DNA of 64,000 bases from a virus. Made by a program: the position numbers and the translations under genes. Below the pieces are notes generated by a model, which was given only the letters and a program-made list of their open reading frames with translations, was not told where the DNA came from and made no database searches. The DNA lies in IMG/VR virus record IMGVR_UViG_3300027863_000019, positions 64,001 to 128,000 of that record; one strand, given 5' to 3'. Positions 9,647 to 51,000 of this stretch are shown in pieces (the stretch's first letter is position 1; each line of letters opens with the position of its first letter).

Positions 9647-9907
9647 AACCGTTAATTTACTTGGCAGATCCTCATACGATTCCGGATCCCGTAGAGAATA
9701 CTCGTCGTGTTATTCAGAAGGTTGAAGAACTAACAAAGCTCGGCTTCGCGGATGGAGTATTTAAGACGTTGTGATTTAATGTATCGAATGAAAGGAATGA
9801 GTCCAGGATCAGATAAAGAAGAGAAGCTGGCAATTGAATTAAACATTCCTATAATTTATGAGAGTGAGGAATATAAATGGATACAACAGCAAAACAAGAT
9901 CTCGTAA
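9643..9907 (+). pseudogene. internally deleted/frameshifted DUF4406/DUF1937-like gene
   Basis: One frame gives MKPLIYLADPHTIPDPVENTRRV...LGFA, a shifted frame gives MEYLRRCDLMYRMKGMSPGSDKEEKLAIELNIPIIYE; the middle of the family consensus is missing. Confidence 0.55.
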
Positions 9908-10914
9908 GGAATATGTTAATCGCGATTGGTGAAGATCCAACTCGTGAAGGATTGTTAGATACTCCGAAGCGAGTCGTAAAAGCCTGGAATGAAATGTTTG
10001 CCGGATATAGAATGAAGCCGGAAGACATCGCTACCACATTTGATGCAGATGGGTACAATGAGTTAGTTCTTTTAAAAGGAATTGAATTCTACTCTACGTG
10101 CGTCGCAGGCTTTACAATGGTTGAAACTCCGAAAGGAAGGATGCCCTTATTTGCTTTGCGCTCAGGCGATTGGATTTATTCATTTAATGAACAACTCAAA
10201 ACGTTTGAAGTTGAACGGTGCTTAAATCCTAGAGTGACTCAGAAGGATGTCGAAGTTTTAAGGGTTATTTCCGAAAAAGATACTTTATTGTGTACTCCAG
10301 ATCATAAGTTTTTAACTTATGATGGTTGGGTTGAAGCTAAAGATTTGCGTCCTGGAACTAGAATTATCTCTGTATATGAAGATCCAATAAGAAGAGCCGC
10401 AATGTTTAAAAAAAGAAGTGAGTCGGTTGCTGTATCGTGGGAGGGAAGACGCGCCGATAAAAATCATAAAATTTTAGGTGTCGATTCTTTCCATGAAAAA
10501 ATTGATGTTTGGTGCCTTGATGCACCTAAAAATCATAACTTTGTTGCGAATGGGATGGTCGTACACAATTGTGAACATCACATGTTAAGCTTTTCGGGGA
10601 AGGCACATGTTGGATATATTCCAAATGGAAAGATTATCGGGATCTCAAAGCTTGCGCGCATCCTCGACATCTTTGCCAAACGTTTGCAGATCCAAGAACG
10701 AATTGGTCAACAAGTAACTCGAGCAATTAACGATTTGCTTGATCCAGTCGGTTCTGCTTGTATCATCGAAGCACAACATCTATGTATGAGATGTCGAGGA
10801 GTTGAGAAGCAAGAGTCAGTAATGATCACGAGTAGCTTAACTGGAGTCTTTCTCGAACACTCCGATAGAGGATTAGCAGCTCGCGCAGAACTGATGAGTT
10901 TAATAAGAGGTTAA
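9877..10914 (+). CDS. folE: GTP cyclohydrolase I containing a mini-intein
   Basis: GEDPTREGLLDTPKRV, FYST|intein|CEHH, GISKLAR, RLQIQER, AQHLCMRCRGV. Confidence 0.93.
   Translation: MDTTAKQDLVRNMLIAIGEDPTREGLLDTPKRVVKAWNEMFAGYRMKPEDIATTFDADGYNELVLLKGIEFYSTCVAGFTMVETPKGRMPLFALRSGDWIYSFNEQLKTFEVERCLNPRVTQKDVEVLRVISEKDTLLCTPDHKFLTYDGWVEAKDLRPGTRIISVYEDPIRRAAMFKKRSESVAVSWEGRRADKNHKILGVDSFHEKIDVWCLDAPKNHNFVANGMVVHNCEHHMLSFSGKAHVGYIPNGKIIGISKLARILDIFAKRLQIQERIGQQVTRAINDLLDPVGSACIIEAQHLCMRCRGVEKQESVMITSSLTGVFLEHSDRGLAARAELMSLIRG
10099..10569 (+). mobile_element. mini-intein (157 aa) in FolE
   Basis: Starts CVAGFT, block B CTPDHKFLT..GW, ends HNFVANGMVVHN before extein Cys; too short for an endonuclease. 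Confidence 0.9.
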
Positions 10915-11059
10915 AAGGAAAAAAGTGGGTGTCTCCGGTATATGATTATGTCAACTTTTTGATGCAGCTTTTGCTCACTATACTTTTTCCCTTTTAATAG
11001 CATCTAAAACCATTGATAATTTATTTATCAATTGCAGGAATACTGAAACAAATGTAAAA

Positions 11060-11215
11060 CACGGAAGTGAGGAAAGCGTTACTTCTATGACGAGGTCTGA
11101 GAAAATCGGACTTACTGCTCCACAAGTGGAGCTCCAGAAGCACAACCGAGAGATGCGCGTTAGCGTTAGGAACTCGTGATTAATGTATCTAAACGCTTTT
11201 CAATTTTTCTCCGTG
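11060..11215 (+). ncRNA. Y-RNA-like unit 1 (conserved closing helix plus ~105-nt multibranch domain)
   Basis: CACGGAAGTGAGGAAAGCGTTACTTC ... AACGCTTTTCAATTTTTCTCCGTG; ends pair; internal hairpins GTCTGA/TCGGAC and GCTCCAC/GTGGAGC. Confidence 0.7.
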
Positions 11216-11229
11216 CTTCCTTAAAAGGA

Positions 11230-11307
11230 TTTAAATTGTAAGTTTGGGGTTACTTCGTGCATAGGAAAAAACCTTGATCACAATTTCTCCCAATCTTACA
11301 ATTTAAA
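11230..11307 (+). ncRNA. Y-RNA-like unit 2 (5' strand of conserved helix partly missing)
   Basis: Outer stem TTTAAATTGTAAG-T-TTGGG / CCCAA-T-CTTACAATTTAAA; GGTTACTTCG and AACCTTGATCACAATTTCTCC retained, AGTGA segment absent. Confidence 0.55.
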
Positions 11308-11399
11308 ATAAAGGGTAGTGAGATTAGGCTTACTTCGCACATATGCTCATAACACGTCAGTGCTTAAACAAGCCTTTTCATTTTACTCCTACCTATTTT
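11306..11399 (+). ncRNA. Y-RNA-like unit 3
   Basis: GGTAGTGAGATTAGGCTTACTTCG-GCAC...GTGC-AAGCCTTTTCATTTTACTCC. Confidence 0.65.
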
Positions 11400-11420: not shown

Positions 11421-11501
11421 ATGGCTGGACCTAAAGGCGGTAAAGGTGGCGGAGGTAAAGGTGGCGGAGGTAAAGGTGGCGGAGGTGGTAAAGCCTGTTA
11501 A
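11421..11501 (+). CDS. Gly/Lys-rich micropeptide (26 aa)
   Basis: MAGPKGGKGGGGKGGGGKGGGGGKAC*, upstream AAGAGAGGT RBS; 15-nt tandem repeat GGTAAAGGTGGCGGA x3. Confidence 0.55.
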   Translation: MAGPKGGKGGGGKGGGGKGGGGGKAC

Positions 11502-11517
11502 TAAGTTGTTATCCTTT

Positions 11518-11583
11518 TGTAGGGTCTGAATACCGGATGAATCCGGCTTTCTAAAAGCCCTCTGAAGCTGAGGGAGCATTCAC
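11518..11583 (+). mobile_element. IS200/IS605 TnpB right-end/omegaRNA fragment (diverged copy)
   Basis: Similar to about 42937-43002; ends AAGCCCTCTGAAGCTGAGGGAGCATTCAC. Confidence 0.8.
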
Positions 11584-11683: not shown

Positions 11684-12031
11684 ATGGGTAACCTTAGTCA
11701 TTGCTGTCCGTTTTGTGGAACTCCAGTTACGGTAGTTGGGCCTTGTGAGAAGTGTATGCCTAAATCACCCGAGCAGATTTTGCAAGGAGCTATAAGAGAA
11801 GATCCTATATTACAACAGAGTATCGTGGCAACAGAAGGTGATGAACTAAAGGATATTATTTTTAACTACGTCAACGCCCAGCCTGAGAAGCGGCTTCACC
11901 TTGATACAATCATTGCACGAATTAAAGGTGCTATGCCGAACGAGCACACAGGAAGTGTAAAACGCGCACTAAGATTTTTGCTTGATGAAGGGCGCGTAAA
12001 GCAAATTCAAGAAACTATAGTAATCAATTAG
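11684..12031 (+). CDS. hypothetical protein, N-terminal Zn-binding motif and possible winged-helix C-terminus
   Basis: CPFC...CEKC; C-terminal VKRALRFLLDEGRV; AGGA RBS. Confidence 0.55.
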   Translation: MGNLSHCCPFCGTPVTVVGPCEKCMPKSPEQILQGAIREDPILQQSIVATEGDELKDIIFNYVNAQPEKRLHLDTIIARIKGAMPNEHTGSVKRALRFLLDEGRVKQIQETIVIN

Positions 12032-12164
12032 GAAGTGAGGAAACGGCTACTTCGACTAGGAACCGCCATTGTAGGTTCGAGTCCTACTCTCCCGATCATG
12101 GCGGGAGATGGTGAAATTGGTAATCACAGCGGAATAGAAAAACCGTTTTCATTTTTCTCCTAAT
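12027..12164 (+). ncRNA. YrlA-like Y RNA (unit 5) with circularly permuted tRNA-like domain
   Basis: Closing helix ATTAGGAAGTGAGGAAACGGCTACTTC / AACCGTTTTCATTTTTCTCCTAAT enclosing CCGC, T-arm GTAGG-TTCGAGT-CCTAC, loop-closed acceptor stem TCTCCCG/CGGGAGA, D-arm GTG-AAATTGGTAAT-CAC, GCGG; about 1.1 kb from Ro60. Confidence 0.82.
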
Positions 12165-12468: not shown

Positions 12469-12567
12469 AATGCGGCTAAAAATATCCTGGCCCTGGGAAT
12501 GCAGGGCTTGAGGCTGGATTCATCCAGCTCTCTAGAAGCCCTCTGCTTCAGCTGAGGGAGCATTCAC
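12469..12567 (+). mobile_element. tnpB 3' end plus right end (omegaRNA scaffold fragment)
   Basis: Near-identical to about 42908-43002 (encodes NAAKNILALGMQGLRLDSSSSLEAL), ends GGGAGCATTCAC. Confidence 0.92.
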
Positions 12568-13197: not shown

Positions 13198-13268
13198 TAT
13201 GCCTTGGCCTTGGTGTGTGATCTACGCCTGGATCATCAGATGGTGGCACAAGCTGAGGGAGCATTCAC
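13198..13268 (+). mobile_element. degenerate TnpB right-end fragment directly upstream of Ro60 RBS
   Basis: TATGCCTTGGCCTTGG..., GCCTGGATCATCAG, AAGCTGAGGGAGCATTCAC. Confidence 0.65.
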
Positions 13269-13289: not shown

Positions 13290-14753
13290 ATGGCAAAATT
13301 CAACAGGAAAGTGTTATCACCAACATTAACAACTAACCTTGCAGGTGGTGAAGCTTATCAAGTGTCACCACAGTTGCAGTTCGTAACGACCCTGCTAACT
13401 TCATTCGCCGAAGACCAGTATTACCGGAAGGCAAGTGGAGCAGTCCGGACTGTTCGGTCTCTGATCGATCAGTTCCCGGATAAGTTGTTCGCGGCTAAGG
13501 CTGCGATCTTTGCTCGCAATGAGTTTGGAGTGAGATCCATTACTCACGTCGTTGCGGGTGAGATTGCCAATCGAGTTAAGGGAATCGGCTGGACCAAGCG
13601 GTTCTTCAATGCCGTTGTAAGGCGTCCGGATGACATCCTGGAAATTCTAGCTTATTACCTTGCAACTTATGGCAAGCCACTGCCAAACTCCTTGAAGAAA
13701 GGGTTGGCGGCTTCTTTCGACAAGTTCGACAAGTACCAGCTGGCAAAGTATCGCGGCGAGTCTCATAGCGTATCCCTCGTGGATGCGGTGAACTTAGTGC
13801 ACCCAAAACCGGTTGCCAAGAACGCGGAAGCGTTACGACAGCTGGTTAAGGATGCCCTGAAGTCCACTGAGACTTGGGAAGCGAAGTTGACCACTGCTGG
13901 ACAAGCGGCTCAAACCGAAGCGGAAAAGGAAGAGTTGAAGTCCCAAGCTTGGACTGAGTTGATTCGTGAGAAAAAGCTCGGGTACTTCGCGTTGCTCCGT
14001 AACCTACGGAACATCGCGCAGCAAGCTCCAGAGATTCTGGAAGATGCGCTGTCAATGCTGGTTGATCCGCAGCTCATCGAAAAGTCTTTGGTTCTTCCGT
14101 TCCGGTTTGGTACCGCATACAAGGAAATGGCTTTGGCTCGGAAGTCAGCCAGCACCAAAGCTGAAGTTTCCTTGTATGATAAAGTAGCGGGGGCTCTTGC
14201 AACGGCTGCTAGCATTTCTTTGAACAATGTGCCTAAGCTGCCTGGCAAAACCCTTGTGGCCTTAGATGTGTCGGGATCTATGGAAGGCAAACCTTTCGAT
14301 ATCGGATCCATGTTCGCTGTAGCTTTGGTAGGTGCGATGAAGGCGGATCTTATTATTTTCTCTAACTCCGCCAAGTACCTCAAACTGACCAAGACTGGAG
14401 ATATCTTCGAGAACATCGATTACATCTACAAGCATTCCGACTTTGGCGGAACTGACTTTCACTCAGTCTTCAGAACCGCCAAACATGCGTACGATAGAAT
14501 CATCATCCTGTCGGATATGCAGGCTTGGGTCGGGTATTATACACCAAAGGAAAGCGTGAAGGCCTTCAAGAAAGCCACTGGCGCCGATCCGCTAATCTAC
14601 TCCTTTGACCTGCAGGGTTATGGGACTCTGCAATTTCCAGAGTCAAAGGTATTCGCGCTGGCTGGATGGAGCGATAAGGTGTTTGACATCATGAAGATTT
14701 TAGAAACTGATCGTCAAGCCCTCATCAACACCATCAATGCTGTAACCTTCTAG
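13290..14753 (+). CDS. Ro60/Rsr TROVE-domain RNA-binding protein with vWA domain
   Basis: TTNLAGGEAY, AIFARNEFGVRS, KFDKYQLAKYR, ETWEAKL, GYFALLRNLRNI, LPFRF, MIDAS DVSGSM, GGTD, IIILSDMQ; GGAGG RBS. Confidence 0.93.
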   Translation: MAKFNRKVLSPTLTTNLAGGEAYQVSPQLQFVTTLLTSFAEDQYYRKASGAVRTVRSLIDQFPDKLFAAKAAIFARNEFGVRSITHVVAGEIANRVKGIGWTKRFFNAVVRRPDDILEILAYYLATYGKPLPNSLKKGLAASFDKFDKYQLAKYRGESHSVSLVDAVNLVHPKPVAKNAEALRQLVKDALKSTETWEAKLTTAGQAAQTEAEKEELKSQAWTELIREKKLGYFALLRNLRNIAQQAPEILEDALSMLVDPQLIEKSLVLPFRFGTAYKEMALARKSASTKAEVSLYDKVAGALATAASISLNNVPKLPGKTLVALDVSGSMEGKPFDIGSMFAVALVGAMKADLIIFSNSAKYLKLTKTGDIFENIDYIYKHSDFGGTDFHSVFRTAKHAYDRIIILSDMQAWVGYYTPKESVKAFKKATGADPLIYSFDLQGYGTLQFPESKVFALAGWSDKVFDIMKILETDRQALINTINAVTF

Positions 14754-17531: not shown

Positions 17532-17596
17532 TGCATGGCTTGAGGCTGGATTCATCCAGCTCTCTAGAAGCCCTCTGAAGCCGTGGGAACATTCAC
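17532..17596 (+). mobile_element. TnpB right-end/omegaRNA fragment
   Basis: GGCTTGAGGCTGGATTCATCCAGCTCTCTAGAAGCCCTCTGAAGCCGTGGGAACATTCAC matches about 42942-43002. Confidence 0.9.
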
Positions 17597-19728: not shown

Positions 19729-19744
19729 CAGAGGGAGCATTCAC
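19729..19744 (+). mobile_element. minimal TnpB right-end remnant upstream of TerS
   Basis: CAGAGGGAGCATTCAC, 14-nt identity to the other right-end copies. Confidence 0.55.
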
Positions 19745-19756
19745 GCGAGGTTAGCA

Positions 19757-20305
19757 TTGAAGAACAATATTGAATTGCATAAACAGGCTTTTGAATTATA
19801 CGTTCAAGGGTTGACGCTCGAAGAAATTGCAGGTAAATTAAATGTTAGCCCCAATACTTTAAAGTATTGGAAGTCAGCGCACTGCAAGTGTACCTGTTCA
19901 TATCATGCTTGGGTGGATTTCAAAAGAAAGATGCAAGTTCAAGTCCCTCAAGTAGTTTCTGAGGCAGTAGTTACAGCTCTTCAACCCAAATATACCGCTC
20001 ATCAATTAATCGGTCTCTTAGAATCTATTTGCTCTGACGCGTTAGAAAATAAGAAGCTTAGACCTCAGACATGGAAAGAACTTTTAGAAACATTTAAATT
20101 AATCCTTGAATTAAAACGTGCGTATGGAACAGAAGAAACAGTTGAAAGTTCCTTTGATATTTTTCGAGTTAAAGGTAAACTGGATATTCACAAATTTGTT
20201 AATGACTTCATGAAGGTGGCAGAAACTCAAGGAGATGTTGAGGCAACCGAAGTTGCAGCATTAATTGAACACACTTTAGGGAGAACGCATGATACTGAAA
20301 GCTAA
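19757..20305 (+). CDS. putative terminase small subunit (N-terminal HTH)
   Basis: AFELYVQGLTLEEIAGKLNVSPNTLKYWK HTH; upstream of TerL. Confidence 0.6.
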   Translation: MKNNIELHKQAFELYVQGLTLEEIAGKLNVSPNTLKYWKSAHCKCTCSYHAWVDFKRKMQVQVPQVVSEAVVTALQPKYTAHQLIGLLESICSDALENKKLRPQTWKELLETFKLILELKRAYGTEETVESSFDIFRVKGKLDIHKFVNDFMKVAETQGDVEATEVAALIEHTLGRTHDTES

Positions 20306-20888
20306 TTGGTTATTGGGCGTAGCTTTTACCGGATCTGAAGGTAGTGGTAAAACTACATTGATTAATCGTCTCGCGGAAGTTTTAAACGTCCCTAAAACCG
20401 TTAACGTTGTCAGAGAAGCGGTAAAGGAAATGGGTTTAGAAAAGCCTCCCGTTTTTGGAACTGACAAAGAACTAACCAGAGAATTCCAATCTTGGTTACT
20501 CCAGAAACGATCGATTAGAGAAAAGTTTATACTCAGTCCATTTCTCGCTGATCGTTCATCTATTGATATGTTTGCATATACTCTAAGTCATCTTGCGCGT
20601 GAAGACGATATGCAAGCTTTTCTTAACGATTACTATCGCCAGTGTGTTGACTACGCAAAGTCAATGTACGAGTTTCATTTCTTCGTACCTTCAGGAAGGA
20701 TTCCGTTGGTTGATGATGGCCTTCGAAATACTCAACCAAACAACGCCCGTTTAATGCATTTCATTATATTGGGCATGTTGAATAACGAAAATATTAAACA
20801 CCACGTAATCCAAGCATCAGGGCTGGATGATAGGGTTGATGAGGTGTTGTGGGTAATGAGGGAGAATGGCCTCATCAAGTCAGTTTAA
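20289..20888 (+). CDS. P-loop nucleotide kinase (AAA_28/thymidylate kinase-like)
   Basis: FTGSEGSGKTT, LADRSSID, DDGLR. Confidence 0.75.
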   Translation: MILKANWLLGVAFTGSEGSGKTTLINRLAEVLNVPKTVNVVREAVKEMGLEKPPVFGTDKELTREFQSWLLQKRSIREKFILSPFLADRSSIDMFAYTLSHLAREDDMQAFLNDYYRQCVDYAKSMYEFHFFVPSGRIPLVDDGLRNTQPNNARLMHFIILGMLNNENIKHHVIQASGLDDRVDEVLWVMRENGLIKSV

Positions 20889-23382
20889 GCTGAGTCAACT
20901 AAAAAAGAATGAACTCCAAGTACTTCGAACCGCAGCAGAAGAACGATTCGACTTCTTCAATGCTGCCTTTCTCGACACGATTCTTCAGCCATTTCATCAG
21001 AGATGGTTTGAATTTCAAATGGCGAATCCGAGGACCTTAGTACTTGGTCCTCGTGGTTCGTGGAAGTGCGTTGGTGATGATACTCTTGTCGCTACTCGCG
21101 AAGGTCTGCAGTACTTAAAAGAAGTTCTTCCTTATAGTGAAGTAACCCTCCCCTTCTCTACTTCAACGGATTTAATTGTCAATTCATGTCTCGGCGAAGC
21201 TAAAGCTACGCAATTATTCTCTAATGGTATTGATAATATCTTAGAGATCGAGACTGAAGATGGCTATGTTCTAAGATGTACTCCTGAACATCGTTGGCTA
21301 GTGTGGAATGGTTATCATCTTAAATTTCGTGAAGCTCAAGCCCTAACTCCTCACGATCGATTTGTCTTCCGTTGTAACTGGCGTTGTTTCGTTCCTAAAG
21401 ATTCGAATCCCTTTAACGTTTCTCCGGAACTTTGGTTCTCAGCGCTTAGCTATTTCTATGCTGCTTATCCGAACTGGCATACAATTTGGAGGGCAACTAG
21501 AACTCGTCAGCAAATTGGGATTCCACTTTGGCGCCACTTTAACCATAAAGAATGGAAATCCCTTCCCCCCGAATTCGAAAAATATTTACAAGAAAATGGA
21601 TTTGATGGAAGCCCATTGCTTCCTAAACCATTAAGAGCTTGTACCTTTTCTGCGGCTAGAACTATTGCGAAAACTTTATGGTGGTATAATCGTTATATAA
21701 AGTTCACGCAGCCTCAAGCCATTGAAGTACAGAAATGGTTTTTAAATTTAGGATTTCCTTTAACACGTTATGGTTCTACGTTACTCCAGAAGAGCGCCAC
21801 ATTGCGTAAGTACTTTTGGAATTTGTTAAATGGATATACCGACACTTGTGATTACACAGAATCTCAAATTGCTGAACTTGCGGGAATATTGGCTGTTGAA
21901 ATTCAAAGAGATCCTTTTGTTGCTCCTATCACTAAGTTTAAGCTTGAGAAGGAATGCAAGTTGGATTTCAAACGCTATCCTAAGAAAGCACAAAGATTTG
22001 TTGAACAAAATTTAAGTGTCATTCCTGGCATTAAAAACTTTTCGTTCTTGTTTAAGTTTCCTCACTTCTTGCAACGCATTAAAGAAATAAAGAAGTCAAA
22101 AGGCTTAACAATTGATTTAACAACTACTGAAGGAAATTATTTAGCGAGTGGCGCAGTTTGTCATAACTCCACAATACTTGGACAGCATTATGCTATTTGG
22201 CATGCACTTCGTAATCCAAATATTCGAATTGGATTAATTTCTAAATCCTCACTTCTCTCATCAAGTTTCGTTAGTAAAATTAAAAATATGCTTGAGACCA
22301 ATGCCAAGATGCAAATGGTCTGGCCTGATTTAATTCAACCAGCAAAGGCGCAGAAGTGGAATAATGCGGAAGTGACTTTGATGCGTTCAATGCCGTTAGC
22401 GGAAGCTACATTTACTGCTCTTGGTGTTGGATCGACCTTGGCTGGTAAGCACTTTGATATTTTAATCTTTGATGATATTGTAGATGTTGAATCAAGAGAT
22501 TCTGCTGCTTTACGGCGTAAAATTTGGGATTGGTTTAGATTTGTTGCAATGCCAACTTTAAGCGTATCACATGAGACTGCTGCACACGTAATTGGAACTG
22601 CTTATCATAGAGAAGATTTATATCATAAAATCTTATTAATGGAAGCTGAGCAAGGTGGTTGGAAGTCAATGATTCAAGCTGCTATTAATGATGACGGCAC
22701 ATCTTTTTGGGAAGAGAATTTCCCTTTAGAGAAACTACAACAAATTGAAGCTATGTACGGACCTGATGTATTCAGGTTACAGTACCAGAATGATGTTAGT
22801 TTCTCGAGTGGTAGTGGTTTGATTTCGGTTGAAGATTTTGAAATGAGTTACTATGAGCCCCATGAAGCAATACCCGATAACTTAGATATCGTAATGGGAG
22901 TCGATCTCGCAGCACCAGGTACTGATAAGTCAAACCAACATAGTATGTTTGCTATCGCGATCGTTGGTCAGGAAAGAGGAACTAGTAGAACATTCCTTCT
23001 TGACTTTATTCAAAGAAGAAACTTGAGACTTGTCGATCAGCGCGACTTAGTTACTAGTTTTTACTTGCGCTATCCCCACATGCACTCAGTTCAGATTGAA
23101 GCGTATGCTGTTCAAACTTACTTTCATGAGTATCTAGCAGAAGGAGATGTTGTCCTTCCTGTTGTGAAAGTTCATACTACTGGATCAAAAGAATCGCGCT
23201 TCGAATTTCTAACCCACCTAGTTAAATCCCAAAAGCTACTCATCCGTCGTGATTATCATAACGAATTTATCAATGAGATGATAAGCTTTCCAAATACAAC
23301 TGCTGACCTAATTGACGCTGTTTATATTGCGGTGAAGGGATTGGTCCGTGAACCAAATATAAGATTTGTAAGTTTATGGTAA
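20866..23382 (+). CDS. terL: terminase large subunit with intein
   Basis: Walker A PRGSWK|intein|ST, GKHFDILIFDD Walker B, IGT coupling motif, nuclease MGVDLA and DLIDA. Confidence 0.9.
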   Translation: MASSSQFKLSQLKKNELQVLRTAAEERFDFFNAAFLDTILQPFHQRWFEFQMANPRTLVLGPRGSWKCVGDDTLVATREGLQYLKEVLPYSEVTLPFSTSTDLIVNSCLGEAKATQLFSNGIDNILEIETEDGYVLRCTPEHRWLVWNGYHLKFREAQALTPHDRFVFRCNWRCFVPKDSNPFNVSPELWFSALSYFYAAYPNWHTIWRATRTRQQIGIPLWRHFNHKEWKSLPPEFEKYLQENGFDGSPLLPKPLRACTFSAARTIAKTLWWYNRYIKFTQPQAIEVQKWFLNLGFPLTRYGSTLLQKSATLRKYFWNLLNGYTDTCDYTESQIAELAGILAVEIQRDPFVAPITKFKLEKECKLDFKRYPKKAQRFVEQNLSVIPGIKNFSFLFKFPHFLQRIKEIKKSKGLTIDLTTTEGNYLASGAVCHNSTILGQHYAIWHALRNPNIRIGLISKSSLLSSSFVSKIKNMLETNAKMQMVWPDLIQPAKAQKWNNAEVTLMRSMPLAEATFTALGVGSTLAGKHFDILIFDDIVDVESRDSAALRRKIWDWFRFVAMPTLSVSHETAAHVIGTAYHREDLYHKILLMEAEQGGWKSMIQAAINDDGTSFWEENFPLEKLQQIEAMYGPDVFRLQYQNDVSFSSGSGLISVEDFEMSYYEPHEAIPDNLDIVMGVDLAAPGTDKSNQHSMFAIAIVGQERGTSRTFLLDFIQRRNLRLVDQRDLVTSFYLRYPHMHSVQIEAYAVQTYFHEYLAEGDVVLPVVKVHTTGSKESRFEFLTHLVKSQKLLIRRDYHNEFINEMISFPNTTADLIDAVYIAVKGLVREPNIRFVSLW
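21067..22167 (+). mobile_element. intein (367 aa) in TerL Walker A
   Basis: Starts CVGDDTLV, block B LRCTPEHRW, ends GNYLASGAVCHN before Ser. Confidence 0.9.
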
Positions 23383-41750: not shown

Positions 41751-43002
41751 TATTGTGACGAGCAAGAGTGTTATATTCATACTCTTGTTTACGCCCATTG
41801 TCAGAATCCCTTCACTTATATCTCGAAGGGATTCTTGATTTTAAGTTTAGGTTAACCAAATGCTTAAAACATTCAAATACCGGATTTTCCCTACCAAAAA
41901 ACAGACTGCCTCTCTTGAGACCGTTCTGGAGGAATGTCGGTATCTTTACAACCGCTTGCTGGAGCAGCGCAAATACGCTTGGGATATTCAGGGAGTTTCA
42001 TTGGGATATTACCAGCAAGCCCGTATGCTACCTGGTATCAAAACAGCCCGGAATCTCCATCTGGCTTACTCTCAGGTCTTGCAAAACGTGGCAGTGCGGG
42101 TTGACCTAGCCTTCAAGGCTTTCTTCCGTCGTGTCAAAGCTGGAGAGAAACCCGGCTTTCCCCGGTTCAAGGGCAAAGGCTGGTACGATTCCATCACCTT
42201 CCCGCAGGTGCCCTTCGGTTGCTGCATCAAAGACAATAGGCTGTCGGTATCCAAGGTCGGCCACATCAAGATCGTCATGCACCGGGAGATGTACGGTAAG
42301 CCAAAGACGGCCACCATTAAGCGTTCTTCCACTGGTAAATGGTATGTGACCTTTGCTTGCGAAATTGAAGCTCAGCGCCTCCTAACTACCGATTCCTCTG
42401 CAGGAATTGACGTGGGTCTGCACACCTTTGCTATGCTTTCCAATGGCATGGCCATTGAAAATCCTCGGTTCTTCCGGGAAGAAGAAAAGGCCCTGGCTAA
42501 GGCCCAACGAAAACTGAGCAAAGCAGCTAAGGGAACGCCAGAGAGAGCTAAACAGCGCAAGGTCGTGGCTCGGGTGCATGAACGGTTAACTTGCCGCCGG
42601 AATAACTTTGCTCATCAGGAATCTCGTAAGATCGTCAATAACTACGGAACCATTTGCGTTGAAGATTTGACCGTCAACCGTATGGTTCATAACCATTGTC
42701 TCGCTAAAAGCATTGCGGACGCAGCTTGGTCCGGATTCTTCTCCATGCTCTCCTATAAGGCTGAAAGCGCCGGTAGGAAGCTGGTCAAAGTCAACCCGGC
42801 CTACACGACGCAGGACTGCCATAGGTGCGGATACCGACAAAAACTCAATCTTGCCGACCGTATCTACGCCTGTCCATGTTGTGGCTTGCATATTGACCGT
42901 GACCTCAATGCGGCTAAAAATATCCTGGCCCTGGGAATGCAGGGCTTGAGGCTGGATTCATCCGGTTCTCTAGAAGCCCTTTAAAGCCGTGGGAGCATTC
43001 AC
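41751..43002 (+). mobile_element. IS200/IS605-family tnpB-only (IS1341-type) element
   Basis: Left hairpin AGAATCCCTTC...GAAGGGATTCT at about 41803-41835, tnpB, right end ending TCAC at 43002; TTGAT at 41746-41750 is a candidate target motif; left boundary uncertain. Confidence 0.75.
41860..42984 (+). CDS. tnpB: RNA-guided endonuclease TnpB
   Basis: KYRIFP HTH, GFPRFK, RuvC D (GIDVG), E (VEDL), D (DRDLNAAKNI), Zn ribbon CHRCG/CPCCG. Confidence 0.95.
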   Translation: MLKTFKYRIFPTKKQTASLETVLEECRYLYNRLLEQRKYAWDIQGVSLGYYQQARMLPGIKTARNLHLAYSQVLQNVAVRVDLAFKAFFRRVKAGEKPGFPRFKGKGWYDSITFPQVPFGCCIKDNRLSVSKVGHIKIVMHREMYGKPKTATIKRSSTGKWYVTFACEIEAQRLLTTDSSAGIDVGLHTFAMLSNGMAIENPRFFREEEKALAKAQRKLSKAAKGTPERAKQRKVVARVHERLTCRRNNFAHQESRKIVNNYGTICVEDLTVNRMVHNHCLAKSIADAAWSGFFSMLSYKAESAGRKLVKVNPAYTTQDCHRCGYRQKLNLADRIYACPCCGLHIDRDLNAAKNILALGMQGLRLDSSGSLEAL

Positions 43003-45008: not shown

Positions 45009-48000
45009 ATGCCCGACGATAGCCCCTTTATTTTAAAGGTAGACAATTCGGCACTCGATCAAACTATCGAGAAAGCCAAGAAGACCGCTACCGAACTTAC
45101 CAACGCTCTTAGTAAAGCAAGTGATAGCGTAAAGGCCTCGCTCGCAAAGGCTTTTGCACCAAACCAGATTAATACCTGGATGTCTGGGATTCAAAGTAAG
45201 CTTGCTGAGCTACAAAGCAGTTCAAGCCTAAAGACTACCTTCACTGTTGATGTGTCACAAGTTGGTGCAGCTCAAACAGCAATGAAGGCATTAGAGTCTC
45301 AAGTTGCTGCAATTCAATATTCCGCAAAACAAGCCGCATCTGCATTAGAAGATAATATTGTTAGAGCCGTAAAAAGATCCGTACAGCAAATAAAACTCCT
45401 TGGCGAAGAGCAAAAGAAGGTTCAAGAGAGTCTTGCTAGCGCTACTTCCCCTGCGGCCGGAGTTACAATCTTTCCTGAATATAGGCGAGAGCTACAAGCT
45501 CAACGCCGAGCGATTGAAAAAGAAGTAGTTCAGACTAAAACTGTCTTACAACAATTACAAAACCTTTATAGAGAGTTCGTTAAGGTTCAAAATTCTGTTG
45601 ATAGTATCGCAGTTGAAGTAAGTAACTCACCAACAATGGCGAAAGCCATTCAAAAGGTTTCTAAGAATTTCGGTGAAGGCGTTCAAATGGCTTTGCCGAA
45701 AGGTGAAATTGCTAAGGACCTTAGAGACTACGTTTTATGGCACCAAGAGCAAACTAATAAAGCTCGAGATGATATTACCAAACATCTCGAGAATATGGAA
45801 CATGCAATTGGTGGTCGTTTAAGATCCCTTCCAGATCCTCTTACTTCTGATCTTCCACGCAAGCGTGCAGAAGAGTTAAAGAAGACTAAAAAAGAACTCG
45901 AGGCGCTTTATAATGAAGTTGCTGGTTTAAGAAACAAATCTGGAACTCCACACGATATTATTGGAGCTCTTGAAGGTCCCGCTCTTGGTAAGATGTATGA
46001 ACAATTCTTAAAAGGTCTTGTTGGAGTTGATGAACTTAACGCTCAGATTGTTTCAAGGATTGATGCCTACACTGCAAAGAGTCGTGAGATTACTTCAAAG
46101 TATCTCCACCTTATGGAAGCCTTTCCAGAGCACATTAAAGCTGGTGGAGAAAGAATCGTTCCTGGACTTTCTGGTCAAGCCCAAATTCCGGTTACTATTG
46201 TTGATCCAACCCCAGCTGAAATCAAGGGGTTACAAAATAGAATTGCCCTTCTCCAAGGTCTTTCAGTACAGTCTGAAAAGACGAAACAAGAGATTGCGAG
46301 TTTACAAGCTCAGTTAGCTTACTTTGAACGTGGAGGTAAAATTACTCAAGTTCCCGAACTTCAGGAAGGAGTGACTCCTAACGTTCGTCACGTTACTCAC
46401 GGTTATAGAGAACACGAATTTACTCCTGAAGCTTTAATGTCGGGCGAGTCAGTAGAGAAACTCGAAGAGTATCGTCAAGCTCTCGCCGGTCTCGATATAG
46501 CTTATAGATCTTCCGCTGACTCCGAAGAATTATTTGCGGATCGTATGAGAAACCTTGGAACCATTATTGGTTTCACTGATTCGAAAGATAAACTTCTTTT
46601 GGAGTACTTCCAACAGAACGAACAAATCGCGATGAGAGCGAGAAGGTTATTTGATGGCGTAAAACAAAGCGCTACCGATATGCCTTCCGTAGCAGAGAAG
46701 ATTAAAGAGATTTCAGGAGTCGCACGCGAGTCGTTAATGAAGCCTGGATTCGAAACGTTTGATCTCTCTGAAAAGTTGAAAGGAAGTATTGGAAACGCTA
46801 CTGGATATGTAAGAAGAGAGTTTGCCGATACAACTAAGAGTGCACACGAAAGTTTACTCAAGCTCAAAATGATCTCTGAAATTTTTGGTGAAGAGATTAC
46901 TGCTCCATTTAAGAGCGTAATAAATTATATTCGTGGTTACAAAGATGAAGCTGGTGTAAGTCAAGGCATTGGTCCGAAGTTTAATATGACTGCAGCTGGA
47001 CCTTTTGGAACTCTAGAACCAGTCTTTAAAAACTTCGAAGACAGAATGCAACGCATCAACGCTTTGATGATGCAGTTCGATACCCGCCCCGCAGAGACTG
47101 CTCCTAAACTCGAGAGTGAACTTCTTGGCATGTCAAACCTTCTTACTGGTGTTGCTGGTAAATATAAAGATATTCGTAATGAAGCTTCAGATATGGCTAG
47201 CGCGTTTCGAATTCAACCAATCATGTCTGAGATTCAAGCGATATTTAATAATCCGGCGCTTTCAAGTCAGAATTTAATTCAAGCCCAAGTAGCAGTTGCA
47301 AAGTTGAATGAAAAGTTTGATCAGATGGTTAAGTATGCTCCAGAGCTTGAACCTTTGCGTCAAAAGATTCGTCAGATCACTGACGAGTTCATTAGTACTA
47401 AAGCTATCACAGTTACTGAGCACCCTCAAGTTAAACAGTGGACAGCAGAAGCTGAAGCACTGAAAGCTCAAATGGAAAGACTCAAAGAGCAGAAACCTAA
47501 AGGAATTGCCGTTGCTCCCGGTCTAGCCGCTGAAGCAGATGAAGCTCAAAACCGCCGCGCAGTAGATTTATGGAAGCGTGAGATGGAATCCGTCGAGACG
47601 ATGTATAATGAACGTATGCAATGGATTGCACGTCAACGCGGAACGCCAATTGAAATCGATGAAGCTGGAGTTCGGGCGGCGTTTACAAAATTCGATACTC
47701 AATTACAGCCTTTTAAACGTCAATTAAATTTTAGTCAGATAATTGGTGATGCATTAACAAACCTTTCGCGTTTAGGTCGGGAAGCTGGAGACGTTGGAAG
47801 TAATGCTTCAATGATGCTTGATAAGATTTTCAAGCTTGTTGAGATGGTTAGCGTTGCAACTAAAACTGGTCTAGTCAAGAGTGAGAGTGAAGAGCTTCAA
47901 AAAATGATGGCAGAGATGAATCAATATACGGTTCATCTTAAATCTGAACACTTACCTGTCGTTGAAGCTTTAGGAAAAGAGTATCAAAGATTTGGTGATA

Positions 48001-51000
48001 AGGTTCAAACCGTTATTGGCGGATTCCTATCAAAAACTGAGCGTGGTGCTCTACCAAATATTATTCGCGAAAAATTTGCTCCACCTGAATTCGATGAAGC
48101 AATGCCTTTGGAAGAATGGTTAGGAAGCTTATCTGGAGGTCATCGCTTCTTCAAACCGATCGGAGGTGAACACGATAAATCTTTTATCGAGCAATTCGCT
48201 CCCCCAGGATCCGAACGTGGTAAACAGTTAACCGTAGCTGATATGTTTGGAACTGGACGTCTTGAGTTAATTGATCAAGCAACTGGAAAACAAACTCAAT
48301 TTGGAAAAGCTGTTGAGTTTGTTAAAAGTCAATTAAGGGAGCCAGGCAAGTTTGAATCTTTCTATCAACCCGCGATGCAGTATACTCAACGGTTAACCCA
48401 TTACATTCAAACTTTACGTGCTGAAATAATTGAAACCGCTAAATCTGATCCTAAAATGGCATCAATGGTTTTAGCGTTAGATACCGCACAATCAAAAGTT
48501 TTTCATACCACTGAATCGTTTAAGGCTCTAAAACGTTCAATCGAAGGTATTGGCCCAACTCAAGGTGCATTCTCACCGAATATGTCCCTCATTGGTAGGG
48601 AGTTAGCAGCTGTTACAGATGCGGCTACTAAATCGATTGACTCGCACGTTCAACAATTTCAAGAACGTTTAAAAGGTATTCTTCAAAAAGGCGGACCGCA
48701 AGAGATTTATGGTGCTATTAAAGAGGCCATGAAGCTTCCTGTTGGATCTTTTGATCAACCTATTTCTTCTCAGGGTATTGGTCAAATCCTCTTTGGTGGT
48801 GGTAATGAATCCCTAATAAGGGGTATGAGCTTTGAACGTCTTACTCAAATCAAAGCAGGTCTCGGTGAGTACTTCCAAGAAGTCGTCGAATCAGGTTGGG
48901 GTGCTGGAGCGATTAAACGTGCTCAGGCTATTATTAAGAGATTGTATACCGGTATTAATGAGGAGATGCACACTCAACGTGCTGAGCTTTTAAGTAAGGG
49001 CGAGCAACTTCCGACACTTTCTGATGAGACTATTCTGCCTTCAAGATGGGCTCAGGAGCCAACAGAGAAATTTTCAAAGCAAATGAAGAGTGCAACAAGA
49101 GCTGTTATGGAAGCTCTTGTTGCCGCAGATACTGAAACTTTCCCAGATACTGCACCATTCGTTCAAAAGATTTCGACTTGGTCTGTAGGTCAAATCGATA
49201 AGATTATCAAGACCTTAAAACAAAAGACCTCACAGAAAAGTCAAGAGTTTGCAAAAGCTCTTGTACCTGGAGAGTTAGCAGAATCACCTGAACAAGAGAA
49301 AATGCTTATCCAGATGATGAACTGGGAACGTGCGATTGCTTCAGCCGAGAAAGTTAAACAAGGCAAGCTGGATGAACTGCGTAGAAAAAGAACGGCTGCC
49401 GCGAAGGATGTGGGAGTTGAGGGTGAAGATGTTCTAACAAGTGAAGCTATCTCAATTGCTGAAGCCGCACCTGGTGCTGGACGAAAGATTGTTGAAAGCA
49501 TTGATAGCGTAACTGCGCAGAAAGTAGCCGCACTCAAACGCCAGATCGCTCAAATGAAGGGAGCTGGTGGAGCTGCTGCACTAGTTGATTATGAAAAGGG
49601 AATGGCTGAAGGAATTAAACAGCCGGGATTCCTTGAAACTGTTTTAGGACCTACTCAAATCGATCCAGTTAAACAAAGACTGTCGAATCTTATAAATCCA
49701 TTTGTTCAAATCAATGCTGAGCTTGAAAACCTTGGAATGGTATTTAGTCGTCAAGGTAGGCCAGTTGCAGCTTGGAGCGAGTTACTAAAAGCTGGTCAAA
49801 CCACTATCATGGACTTAATCAAGGAAGTTGCTAAAGTCAGTCCAGCAACTGATACCCTTGATGAGCATATCATGAAGTTTAATGCGACAGCGTCTGATGA
49901 AAAGAAAGTAATGACCTTCGCGTCATTATTAGAAATGATTCAGTCAATCAAGATCGCTCTTTCAGTCGCGATTCCAGAATACCAGAAATTGGTAGATACT
50001 GGTGACTTTACTGGCGCTGCTGCAAAGCGAGAAGATCTCGTATCTACTACGAGACTGTTAACAACCTTGATGCAGGAACTCGCGCGTTCTGAATCTGCGG
50101 TAGTTAGTAACGAATTTCTAATTGAAGATTTACGTCGTCGTGAAATTACTACCCTTCGTGAGTTAGGTCAAGCATATCGAATTCATAAACTTGAAGCTCA
50201 AGAAAGTATTGGACCTTTAGCTTCTGCAAGTAGAGCCGAACAAGCTAAAGCCGCGCTTGCTGGTCGAGACATCCTTAGACAATCAGTTATCTCTGCTCAA
50301 TGGAGAGGTGAGAAAACTACTGAGCCTGGTGGACCATTTGAAGGTATTGGTGAACCAGTTGGAACTATTGCTGATGTTTCAGAGAAGATGCTTGGTAGAT
50401 GGGATCAACTTGCGAATATGCGGAAAGGTATTGTTGATGTTATCAATACTTATCGTACAGCAAACAAAGAATTTGAGTATGGAGTTGCTGAGCCGAAGAA
50501 TTTAGATGACTTGATTGCGAAGCTTATGAAGTTCAATCGAATTCTAGAAGAAGGAAAAAATCTTCCTCCGACGTGGCAAAAGTCTTACGAGAATGCTTTT
50601 AAGGGAGTCCAACCATTTTTACAAGGCGTTTTAGAAGCAGCTAATAAAGCAAGCACAAGTGCGGGTAGAACTAGCTTTGCTGAGAAGTGGGCTGGAGATA
50701 TTCAGAAAGCTCGTGATGAAGCAGCGCATTTAATTATTGAAATGCAAGAGCTGACCAAGCTTATGCAGTCAACGCCACGCGGTGCTGAAACGCAACAAAA
50801 ACGTATTGCACAATCTGAAAGAGCTGGCGAACTTTTAGAGCGGGCCGGTGTAGTCCAGCTTGAAATGAGTAAGGATTCTCATACTCCCTCTGAAGAGATG
50901 AGGCTGGCTGCTGCTGCCACCCAAGAGTTAAAAGCAGCTTCAAGTGGTAACTTATCGCTTTGGGAACGTATTACTAATACAGTTAAAACAACTCGCAATA

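What the first reader, a model, noticed from the sequence alone, without database searches (positions are those of the whole stretch)
12027..12164. Circularly permuted tRNA mimic (YrlA architecture) inside unit 5
The order inside the helix is CCGC, T-arm (GTAGG TTCGAGT CCTAC), acceptor stem closed by a loop (TCTCCCG ATCATGG CGGGAGA), D-arm with GG (GTG AAATTGGTAAT CAC), GCGG. The anticodon arm is replaced by the long closing helix, and there is no anticodon or CCA. This is the known layout of bacterial/phage YrlA RNAs and anchors the Y-RNA reading of the whole array. It could decoy host anticodon nucleases or recruit tRNA-modifying or degrading enzymes (inference).
Basis: partly seen in the sequence, partly recalled or inferred. 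Interest (0 to 1): 0.8.

Follow-up and report, generated by a model that had tools for sequence, protein, structure and literature searches.

The report
Phage Y RNA carrying a tRNA mimic
A phage small-RNA gene holds a back-to-front tRNA look-alike on a long stem, 1.1 kb upstream of the phage's own Ro60-type protein gene; it is a divergent example of the known bacterial and phage "YrlA" Y RNAs, not a new kind of element.

Summary
Window 12063-12132 reads, in order: CCGC, T arm, a 7-bp acceptor-like stem closed by a loop, U8-G9, D arm with GG, GCGG.

- **tRNA likeness.** Re-permuted, it is called a tRNA by ARAGORN; 0 of 1000 shuffles are.
- **Chance.** The layout occurs once in the window against 0.01 expected.
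- **Independent model of the module.** Built from 51 such modules in other loci, it scores unit 5 at 44.7 bits (E 4e-10).
- **Independent model of the handle.** Built from relatives only, it finds five window units, including unit 5.
- **Partner gene.** A TROVE/Ro60 (Rsr) gene lies 1.1 kb downstream on the same strand.
- **Family linkage.** Among 108 look-alikes in phage and bacterial DNA, most sit a median of about 360 nt upstream of a TROVE gene, 93 of 94 on its strand.

So this is YrlA architecture and genomic context (Chen 2014). Strict membership fails in two ways. Rfam YrlA scores 25.5 bits against a threshold of 69. The published GNCGAA motif is replaced by AGUGAGG plus a conserved UACUUCG.

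Most likely role: an adaptor RNA whose handle binds phage Rsr and whose tRNA-shaped module recruits a tRNA-recognising partner such as host PNPase. A decoy for anticodon nucleases is unlikely, because there is no anticodon loop.

This scan has already noted similar Ro60-plus-Y-RNA arrays in other genomes. No expression data could be obtained.

The parts
12027..12164 (+). Unit 5: complete Y-RNA-like gene (handle plus tRNA-like module)
   Evidence: Handle model R2 hit 12023-12164; module model R1 hit 12065-12130; Rfam YrlA alignment 12040-12152; fold
12027..12033 (+). Outer stem, 5' strand AUUAGGA; pairs with 12158-12164
   Evidence: MFE and constrained folds
12031..12040 (+). 5' handle block GGAAGUGAGG, at the position of the published Ro-binding GNCGAA / GGUCCGA motif; relatives read UAGUGA or UAGCGA here
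   Evidence: Repeat families D1/D3; alignment with relatives; literal GNCGAAN0-1G absent
12041..12046 (+). Variable handle helix, 5' strand AAACGG; pairs with CCGUUU 12143-12148
   Evidence: This helix differs in sequence in every unit yet stays complementary
12048..12054 (+). UACUUCG, the most conserved handle motif
   Evidence: Invariant in alignments A4 and A5; found within 700 nt upstream of Rsr in 22 of 23 Rsr-anchored loci
12063..12066 (+). CCGC, 3'-strand equivalent of a tRNA anticodon stem; pairs with GCGG 12129-12132
   Evidence: compensatory CCAU/AUGG in the L147 homologue
12071..12087 (+). T arm GUAGG-UUCGAGU-CCUAC (G53-C61, U54, U55, C56 and A58 equivalents all present)
12088..12108 (+). 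Acceptor-like stem, 7 bp UCUCCCG/CGGGAGA, closed by loop AUCAUGG (no free ends, no CCA)
   Evidence: all 7 pairs covary across the family
12109..12127 (+). U8-G9 linker and D arm (GUGA-AAUUGGUAA-UCAC; A14, A15, G18-G19 equivalents)
12133..12160 (+). 3' strand of the handle: A-rich loop strand, CCGUUU, and pyrimidine block UCAUUUUUCUCC
   Evidence: Repeat families D2/D5/D11; R2 alignment
13290..14753 (+). TROVE/Ro60 (Rsr) gene, the presumed protein partner
   Evidence: Pfam TROVE E 9e-19 and Ro60 vWA; best solved relative Thermus phage phiLo Ro60, 9L5Y/9KOP, E 2e-19
11055..11215 (+). Unit 1: same handle, non-tRNA cargo
   Evidence: R2 28.4 bits; fold
11306..11392 (+). Unit 3: minimal handle unit
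   Evidence: R2 30.9 bits
11584..11663 (+). Unit 4: minimal handle unit
   Evidence: R2 32.4 bits
12346..12419 (+). Unit 6: minimal handle unit
   Evidence: R2 29.3 bits
12265..12341 (+). Genuine tRNA-Met(CAU) between units 5 and 6
   Evidence: Rfam tRNA 60.4 bits; ARAGORN

Best explanation
Unit 5 is a phage-encoded Y RNA of the YrlA type. It is transcribed on the + strand with the downstream rsr gene, probably as part of a longer precursor that also holds the other handle units and tRNA-Met.

It has two modules.
- **The handle.** It consists of an outer stem, the GGAAGUGAGG block, a 6-bp variable helix, and an internal loop with UACUUCG opposite an A-rich strand. It is the part shared with the other units and with relatives, and is the likely binding site for the phage Rsr (Ro60) ring.
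- **The apical module (12063-12132).** It folds into a tRNA-like L shape held by the usual D-loop/T-loop elbow contacts, with the acceptor end closed by a loop and the anticodon arm replaced by the handle.

The RNA acts as an adaptor. It tethers Rsr to a protein that recognises tRNA shape. The best-precedented candidate is host polynucleotide phosphorylase, giving a RYPER-like RNA-degrading particle. The RNA may also gate access to the Rsr cavity.

Shown here: the sequence architecture, family membership of both modules, covariation, and linkage to TROVE.

Inferred: transcription, Rsr binding, the L-shaped fold, and the identity of the recruited partner. My odds are about 0.85 that it is an Rsr-associated tRNA-mimic Y RNA, and about 0.4 that PNPase is the partner.
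For: **Architecture and tRNA likeness**
-, as set out under the observation check.

**Contact nucleotides present**
- U8, A14, A15 with U48 (Levitt pair), G18-G19, G53-C61, U54-A58, U55-C56.
- In 108 family instances U8 occurs in 102 and A14 in 96. Positions 15:48 covary as G:C (57) or A:U (34).

**Independent models**
- R1, from 51 modules of other loci: 44.7 bits, E 3.6e-10. The only other window hit is the T arm of tRNA-Met at 18 bits.
- R2, the handle from 13 relatives: hits only at 11055, 11306, 11584, 12023 and 12346, all on the + strand.
- Rfam YrlA aligns over its full length, model positions 1-114.

**Covariation**
- 14 of 16 module pairs show double changes (rows were preselected for pairing).
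- 7 of 9 pairs in the variable handle helix show double changes.
- The L147 homologue keeps an identical T arm and acceptor stem. It has compensatory changes in the D stem (GUG/CAC to GUC/GAC), in the closing stem (CCGC/GCGG to CCAU/AUGG) and in the whole handle helix.

**Linkage to the partner gene**
- TROVE gene 1.1 kb downstream on the same strand.
- 38 of 50 viral and 23 of 28 genomic loci found by the RNA pattern alone hold a TROVE homologue. 93 of 94 instances are on its strand, with a median distance of 357 nt upstream.
- None of 119 control loci with a real tRNA-Arg holds one.

**Precedent**
- YrlA is bound by Rsr, is modified by TruB and DusA, and co-purifies with PNPase (PMC4201824, 10.1101/312249).
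- Thermus phage phiLo Ro60 binds two phage Y-like RNAs and forms a complex with host PNPase (PMC12135203).
Against:
- Rfam YrlA reaches only 25.5 bits against a gathering score of 69.
- The literal GNCGAAN0-1G motif is absent.
- No promoter-like or terminator-like site stands out near the unit, so it may never exist as a discrete RNA.
- Unit 5 lies 1.1 kb from rsr, with two more units, a tRNA and an ORF in between. This is further than the family median.
- Its D arm (UG-GUGA...UCAC) departs from the UA-GCUC...GAGC consensus, which published work suggests may be the partner's contact site.
- The partner of the tRNA-like module is unknown even for Salmonella YrlA.
Confidence: 0.8

Rival explanations
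1. It is a tRNA-like processing signal ('punctuation') within a polycistronic transcript. RNase P or RNase Z would recognise the module and cut the precursor between the upstream ORF (ends 12031) and the downstream tRNA-Met and units. The element is then consumed rather than serving as a stable Rsr adaptor.
For: - The unit starts at the stop codon of ORF 11684-12031.
- There is no convincing promoter or terminator nearby.
- A genuine tRNA lies 100 nt downstream.
- M. smegmatis YrlA is cut by RNase P in its acceptor loop and receives CCA, and Y RNAs there come from one precursor (PMC4201824).
- 10 of 108 family acceptor loops begin with ACCA.
Against: - This does not explain why the module always sits on the conserved handle, or why it is linked to TROVE genes.
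- Processing and adaptor function are not exclusive; published YrlAs are both processed and Rsr-bound.
Confidence: 0.1
2. It is a decayed or rearranged tRNA gene with no function of its own: the junction of two tandem tRNA genes, or a pseudogene.
For: - The T arm plus the preceding GGAACC is shared with real tRNA-Arg(UCG/ACG) genes, which swamped the metagenome scan.
- Phages of this clade carry tRNA arrays next to rsr (L003).
Against: - The two acceptor strands are perfectly complementary to each other across a 7-nt loop, which a junction of different tRNAs would not give.
- No anticodon arms flank it, and ARAGORN finds no tRNA there.
- The same layout recurs in 108 distinct instances with covarying stems.
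- Compensatory changes are seen against L147.
- It is framed by the conserved handle.
Confidence: 0.03
3. It is a circularly permuted tRNA gene that is matured, through a circular or trans-ligated intermediate, into a working tRNA, as in the red alga Cyanidioschyzon merolae.
For: The re-permuted sequence passes ARAGORN once a 7-nt anticodon loop is supplied.
Against: - No anticodon loop is encoded. The position is occupied by more than 20 bp of conserved handle with internal loops.
- No CCA is encoded.
- No ligase or splicing endonuclease was seen among the window genes scanned.
Confidence: 0.02
4. It is a protein-coding or minus-strand feature. Candidates are the 42-codon + strand ORF 12035-12163, or a minus-strand micro-ORF, since the 3' handle block reads AGGAGAAAAAUG in reverse complement.
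For: - ORF list.
- The reverse complements of several units' 3' blocks give GGAG followed by a start codon.
Against: - All long ORFs but two (both lying inside longer + strand ORFs), and every annotated one, are on the + strand.
- No minus-strand ORF of 40 codons or more lies here.
- The homologue in L147 differs by loop-length changes that would shift the frame and by paired compensatory changes.
- Both RNA models hit the + strand only.
Confidence: 0.02

Closest known systems
YrlA of Salmonella Typhimurium and other bacteria (Rfam RF02553; Chen et al. 2014, PMC4201824; crystal structure 6CU1, Wang et al. 2018, 10.1101/312249)
   Same: - Same order T arm, closed acceptor stem, D arm.
- The anticodon arm is replaced by the stem formed by the RNA's two flanks.
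- No free CCA.
- Same tertiary-contact nucleotides, including a 15:48 Levitt pair.
- Encoded next to a Ro60 ortholog on the same strand.
   Different: - Scores 25.5 bits against Rfam's 69.
- The literal GNCGAAN0-1G motif is absent (AGUGAGG at that position).
- The handle carries an extra variable helix and a conserved UACUUCG loop motif.
- The D arm is of the minority UG-GUGN type.
- It lies upstream of rsr, whereas in Salmonella it lies 3' of rsr.
- It is one of about seven handle units.
Mycobacterium smegmatis YrlA/YrlB and mycobacteriophage YrlAs (PMC4201824)
   Same: - Encoded upstream of rsr.
- Several Y RNAs are made from one precursor.
- Phage-encoded examples were already reported (22 phages).
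   Different: The M. smegmatis RNA is cut by RNase P in the acceptor loop and gains CCA. Whether unit 5 (loop AUCAUGG) is cut is unknown. Its L147 homologue encodes ACCA in the loop; unit 5 does not.
Thermus phage phiLo Ro60 with Yrl1/Yrl2 (PMC12135203; PDB 9L5Y, 9KOP)
   Same: - The closest solved relative of the window's Rsr (E 2e-19).
- A phage Ro60 with phage-encoded Y-like RNAs upstream.
- A stem, internal loop, stem handle.
- Shown to assemble with host PNPase.
   Different: - The phiLo RNAs were picked out by a CGAA motif.
- My term search of the paper found no YrlA and only two mentions of tRNA, so it does not seem to describe them as tRNA mimics.
- Two RNAs there, against about seven units here.
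Deinococcus radiodurans Yrn1
   Same: An Rsr-bound Y RNA with a T-arm-like element. It tethers Rsr to PNPase (RYPER).
   Different: The T-like and D-like arms lie in the opposite order relative to the ends (PMC4201824). Relative L003 carries one unit of each orientation; unit 5 is of the YrlA orientation.
Circularly permuted tRNA genes (Cyanidioschyzon merolae) and two-piece or permuted tmRNA
   Same: The 3' half of a tRNA-like fold is encoded before the 5' half.
   Different: Those are matured into RNAs with free acceptor ends that are aminoacylated. Unit 5 has a closed acceptor stem, no anticodon loop and no CCA.

Membership tests
YrlA-type Y RNA as defined by Chen et al. 2014 | Encoded within about 4 kb of a Ro60/TROVE ortholog, on the same strand | tested here: met
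   The unit ends at 12164. The TROVE ORF 13290-14753 is on the + strand (Pfam E 9e-19; PDB phiLo Ro60 E 2e-19).
YrlA-type Y RNA as defined by Chen et al. 2014 | T stem-loop, acceptor-like stem-loop and D stem-loop in that 5'-to-3' order, enclosed by a stem formed from the RNA's flanks | tested here: met
   Coordinates; ARAGORN on the re-permuted sequence; Rfam YrlA alignment places all three arms; R1 44.7 bits.
YrlA-type Y RNA as defined by Chen et al. 2014 | Nucleotides for tRNA tertiary contacts, including a compensating 15:48 Levitt pair | tested here: met
   U8, A14, A15:U48, G18-G19, G53-C61, U54-A58 and U55-C56 are present by sequence. The family shows G:C 57 and A:U 34 of 108 at 15:48. 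The three-dimensional fold itself was not tested.
YrlA-type Y RNA as defined by Chen et al. 2014 | GNCGAAN0-1G motif near the 5' end (presumed Rsr contact) | tested here: not met
   There is no literal match in 12027-12070. The homologous block reads AGUGAGG, with transitions at the C and at the last A. Relatives L004, L005 and L014 read UAGCGAA. The motif is absent from 106 of 108 UACUUC-type instances.
YrlA-type Y RNA as defined by Chen et al. 2014 | Bound and stabilised by Rsr; substrate of tRNA enzymes (TruB, DusA, RNase P, CCA-adding enzyme) | not testable with these tools
   This needs RNA immunoprecipitation, gel shifts and modification mapping.
Rfam RF02553 (YrlA) | Bit score at or above the curated gathering score (69) | tested here: not met
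   25.5 bits, E 0.017 in a 3-kb search, model positions 1-114. No hit at gathering level. The model also missed every Streptomyces, Bacteroidota, Clostridia and phage example tested, so it is narrow.
TROVE-linked 'UACUUCG-handle' Y RNAs (defined here) | Handle: outer helix, single bulged base, (U/A)AGYGA block, variable helix, UACUUCG loop, A-rich 3' loop strand, pyrimidine 3' block | tested here: met
   R2, built from relatives only, hits 12023-12164 at 20.1 bits, E 0.039 over 64 kb. UACUUCG is invariant in A4 and A5.
Canonical tRNA (Rfam RF00005) | Linear order acceptor-D-anticodon-T-acceptor, with an anticodon loop | tested here: not met
   There is no tRNA call on the native sequence by ARAGORN or Rfam, and no anticodon loop.

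The most novel reading that the evidence does not exclude
The phage carries one Ro60 ring and a library of about seven adaptor RNAs that share one Rsr-binding handle but display different cargo modules. Unit 5 is the adaptor that presents a tRNA shape. During infection it would bring a host tRNA-recognising factor to the phage Rsr. That factor could be PNPase, RNase P, the CCA-adding enzyme, or a defence nuclease or transferase that attacks the tRNA elbow or acceptor end. The effect would be to re-programme host RNA decay or blunt tRNA-directed immunity. The UACUUCG handle would then define a large Y-RNA subclass, spread across phages and several bacterial phyla, that neither Rfam nor the published motif captures.
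Probability: 0.2. Interest if true: 0.7.

Novelty: new variant of a known kind. Interest (0 to 1): 0.4.

Why it matters
Ro60 and its Y RNAs are conserved from bacteria to humans, yet the partner of the tRNA-like YrlA module is still unknown. Phage versions are compact and come with their own Ro60, so they can be tested directly in a phage-host pair.

This locus adds three things:
- A divergent handle type (UACUUCG) that current models miss but that is widespread next to TROVE genes.
- A case in which a single tRNA mimic sits among sibling units that share the handle but carry other cargo. That gives natural controls for asking what the tRNA shape contributes.
- For annotation, it shows that Rfam's YrlA threshold leaves most phage and many bacterial examples unlabelled.

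Tried and rejected
- **Rfam at gathering thresholds** found only tRNA-Met.
- **blastn (distant mode)** of the array against 50,697 phage records found nothing.
- **No whole genome is held** for the window, so host, PNPase, RNase P and RtcB could not be sought.
- **The closest Rsr relatives** (L001 at 81% and L002 at 77% identity) are cut off before the position of unit 5.
- **A search with the neighbouring 115-aa protein** found no relatives in viral contigs.
- **The single metagenome scan** (GGAACC...TTGTAGGTTCGAGTCCTAC) was swamped by genuine tRNA-Arg(UCG/ACG) genes. It yielded only one likely homologue, L193. The similarity to tRNA-Arg is confined to the T arm and adjacent bases, so I draw no conclusion about ancestry.
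- **The promoter and terminator scan** was no better than shuffles.
- **MAFFT on whole units** misaligned the acceptor and D regions (A1). I used core-only alignments instead.
- **Minus-strand RBS-plus-start and the + strand 42-codon ORF** were considered and rejected (see rivals).
- **A recollection that human Y1 RNA contains GGUAGUGAG**, as window units 3, 4 and 7 do, was not tested and is not used.
- **Complex prediction** was not used, since it cannot take RNA.
Full report
**1. What is at 12027-12164**

In order these are:
- CCGC (12063-12066)
- a T arm GUAGG-UUCGAGU-CCUAC (12071-12087)
- a 7-bp stem UCUCCCG/CGGGAGA closed by the loop AUCAUGG (12088-12108)
- U-G (12109-12110)
- a D arm GUGA-AAUUGGUAA-UCAC with GG at 12119-12120 (12111-12127)
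- A, then GCGG (12129-12132)

Outside this core lies a second module, which I call the handle:
- an outer stem AUUAGGA/UCCUAAU (12027-12033 with 12158-12164)
- a purine block GGAAGUGAGG
- a 6-bp helix AAACGG/CCGUUU
- an internal loop with UACUUCG (12048-12054) on the 5' strand and an A-rich run on the 3' strand
- a pyrimidine block UCAUUUUUCUCC

There is no anticodon loop and no CCA.

**2. Is it more than chance?**

- I joined 12102-12132, a 7-nt loop and 12063-12094 so as to restore the tRNA order. ARAGORN then calls a tRNA with a 7-bp acceptor stem, 4-bp D stem, 4-bp anticodon stem and 5-bp T stem, whichever loop is supplied. It calls nothing on the native order.
- None of 1000 shuffled constructs is called.
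- A simple scan for T arm, 7/7 closed stem and D arm with GG finds one site in the 64-kb window. The mean over 100 dinucleotide shuffles is 0.01.
- The cloverleaf-constrained fold is within 1.5 kcal/mol of the optimum.
- The plain fold z-score is unremarkable at -1.9, as is common for tRNA-like folds.

**3. Surroundings**

All annotated genes, and all long ORFs but two that lie inside longer + strand ORFs, are on the + strand. The window is a tailed phage with portal, capsid, prohead protease, RecA, SbcC, dUTPase, QueC and an intein-bearing GTP cyclohydrolase I. Earlier notes place at least 60 kb of the same genome on one side of the window and some 20 kb on the other.

The ORF at 13290-14753 is a TROVE/Ro60 protein:
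- Pfam TROVE E 9e-19, plus the Ro60 vWA domain.
- Its closest solved relative is the Ro60 of Thermus phage phiLo, E 2e-19 over residues 13-480.

Between the cyclohydrolase gene and rsr lie about seven units with the same handle, three small ORFs and a genuine tRNA-Met. Unit 5 is the only one with a tRNA-like core.

**4. Relatives**

Twenty-seven viral contigs encode Rsr proteins 45-83% identical to the window's.
- In 22 of 23 loci with enough upstream sequence, UACUUC(G/U) occurs within 700 nt upstream of rsr, usually in two or three units.
- The 635-kb uncultured phage LR745206.1 has the same two units.
- In L003, L004, L005 and L014 some of these units carry T, closed-acceptor and D modules. 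Rfam YrlA scores these at 34-40 bits, still below threshold.

A pattern requiring only UACUUCG followed by a T-loop core was run on viral contigs and on one genome per prokaryotic species.
- 30% of the viral pattern hits show the full closed-acceptor plus D-arm layout. The rate after shuffling the downstream sequence is 0.34%.
- Together these give 108 distinct instances.
- Of the loci carrying them, 38 of 50 viral and 23 of 28 genomic ones hold a TROVE homologue in the stretch fetched. 93 of 94 instances are on its strand. 77 lie upstream, at a median distance of 357 nt.
- None of 119 control loci that hold a real tRNA-Arg has a TROVE gene.
- The bacterial examples come from Streptomyces, Rhodococcus, Amycolatopsis, Bacteroidota, Acidobacteriota, Clostridia and others.

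**5. Structure support**

On a 52-sequence core alignment, all 7 acceptor pairs, 4 of 5 T pairs and 3 of 4 D pairs show changes on both sides. The rows had been selected for pairing, so the percentage paired is not informative; the variety of pair types is.

Family-wide, U8 occurs in 102 of 108 and A14 in 96 of 108. The Levitt positions 15:48 read G:C (57) or A:U (34). This is the same compensation reported for YrlA (PMC4201824). Unit 5 has A15:U48.

The closest homologue of unit 5, in L147, has an identical T arm and acceptor stem. It shows compensatory changes in the D stem, the closing stem and the entire handle helix, and its acceptor loop reads ACCAAU.

For the handle, 13 relatives give 90% paired cells. 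Seven of nine pairs in the variable helix show double changes, and slid controls fall to 33-54% paired.

**6. Cross-validation**

A covariance model of the core, built without the window (A3, R1), hits 12065-12130 at 44.7 bits, E 3.6e-10. Its only other hit is the T arm of tRNA-Met, at 18 bits.

A handle model built from relatives only (A5, R2) hits 11584, 11306, 12346, 11055 and 12023-12164, and nothing else in 64 kb. In unit 5 it skips the 83-nt insert.

Both modules of unit 5 are therefore recognised independently. E-values from these shortened calibrations are rough.

**7. Comparison with what is known**

The layout is that of YrlA. In the Salmonella RNA the T stem-loop (nt 33-49), acceptor stem-loop (50-64) and D stem-loop (67-81) sit on an anticodon-like stem made by the flanks. 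The domain is an L-shaped tRNA mimic without a free CCA (10.1101/312249).

Published findings on YrlA and phage Y RNAs:
- YrlAs lie near Ro60 genes on the same strand in 254 bacteria and 22 phages.
- They are modified by TruB and DusA.
- In M. smegmatis, YrlA is cut by RNase P and gains CCA (PMC4201824).
- Thermus phage phiLo Ro60 binds two phage Y-like RNAs and assembles with host PNPase (PMC12135203).

Unit 5 meets the context, order and contact-nucleotide criteria. It fails two sequence-level ones:
- Rfam RF02553 gives 25.5 bits against 69. That model also misses all the other examples tested.
- The literal GNCGAAN0-1G motif is absent.

At the position of that motif this clade has (U/A)AG(U/C)GA. 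Some relatives read UAGCGAA; unit 5 reads AAGUGAG. The clade adds a second, more conserved motif, UACUUCG, beyond an extra variable helix.

I therefore file unit 5 as a divergent variant that works like YrlA, not as a strict member.

**8. Mechanism**

*Shown:* architecture, family relations, covariation and TROVE linkage.

*Inferred from the named precedents:*
- The handle binds the outer surface of the phage Rsr ring.
- The core folds into an L shape.
- The L-shaped module recruits a tRNA-recognising partner, most plausibly host PNPase, to build a RYPER-like degradation particle. It may also gate the Rsr cavity.

The unit probably arises from a longer transcript, for three reasons. It begins at the stop codon of the upstream ORF. 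No promoter or terminator stands out. A repeated motif GAGGGAGCAUUCAC, a possible promoter or leader, lies at 11570, upstream of unit 4.

It remains open for factors that read the elbow or acceptor end.

**9. Rivals**

- A pure processing signal (0.1). This is compatible with, rather than opposed to, the adaptor role.
- A decayed tRNA or a tRNA-tRNA junction (0.03).
- A permuted tRNA gene matured into a working tRNA (0.02).
- Coding or minus-strand readings (0.02).

The evidence for and against each is given in the Rival explanations section.

**10. Verdict**

The element is a divergent YrlA-type Y RNA of a phage Ro60 system, which makes it a new variant of a known kind.

This scan has already noted similar Ro60-plus-Y-RNA arrays in many other genomes. 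Those notes are leads, not evidence.

Interest is moderate. The class has been known since 2014. The handle subtype, its breadth, and the single tRNA mimic among sibling units make the locus a useful experimental entry point.

Noticed in passing
window 11570-11583, 12554-12567, 13255-13268, 19731-19744 (exact); 17583-17596, 42989-43002 (1-2 mismatches): GAGGGAGCATTCAC occurs six times, all on the + strand (0.42 expected). Most copies lie 13-70 nt upstream of an ORF start or of Y-unit 4. The first two copies are preceded by two small hairpins. It may be a phage-specific promoter or leader; an ORF with a sigma-70 region 4 domain starts at 19757.
   Followed up: partly
L003:3860-3990: A unit directly upstream of a related Rsr gene carries a D arm, an anticodon-like arm and a T arm in normal tRNA order on a Y-type stem. 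This is the D. radiodurans Yrn1-like orientation, and it sits next to a unit of the YrlA orientation. Both orientations therefore coexist in one phage.
   Followed up: partly
L147:5750-6260 (- strand): Another viral contig has at least four handle units upstream of a TROVE gene, two of them with tRNA-like modules. Its handle uses UACUUCA/UACAUCA and a GUUCCC 3' block. Its unit-5 homologue encodes ACCA at the start of the acceptor loop.
   Followed up: partly
family-wide (loci L028-L386): 10 of 108 acceptor loops begin with ACCA, against about 0.4 expected. This hints that some family members are cut to expose a tRNA-like 3' end, as reported for M. smegmatis YrlA.
   Followed up: no
family-wide (for example L049, L085, L096, L102, L311, L312, L332): Loci with two or three tRNA-like modules often combine different D-arm types (UA-GCUC...GAGC, UG-GUGU...GCAC, UG-GCG...CGC). 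This suggests that paralogous mimics imitate different tRNA classes. Unit 5 belongs to the minority UG-GUG type.
   Followed up: no
window 11423-11503: A micro-ORF encodes a Gly/Lys-rich peptide of about 26 residues built from three 15-nt tandem repeats. It lies between Y units 3 and 4 and has a plausible ribosome-binding site.
   Followed up: no
window 9877-10914 and 20866-23382: GTP cyclohydrolase I is interrupted by an intein (Intein_splicing, E 9e-16). The 838-aa ORF downstream of a terminase-small-subunit-like gene gives a weaker intein match (E 1e-5, below Pfam's cut-off).
   Followed up: no
L193:800-1750: A metagenome contig holds a module very like unit 5's (same T arm and D arm, different covarying acceptor stem) but no UACUUC motif within 70 nt. 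It sits among tRNA genes and next to a permuted tmRNA hit (71.7 bits).
   Followed up: no
window 45009-59045: A single ORF of 4678 codons lies on the + strand.
   Followed up: no
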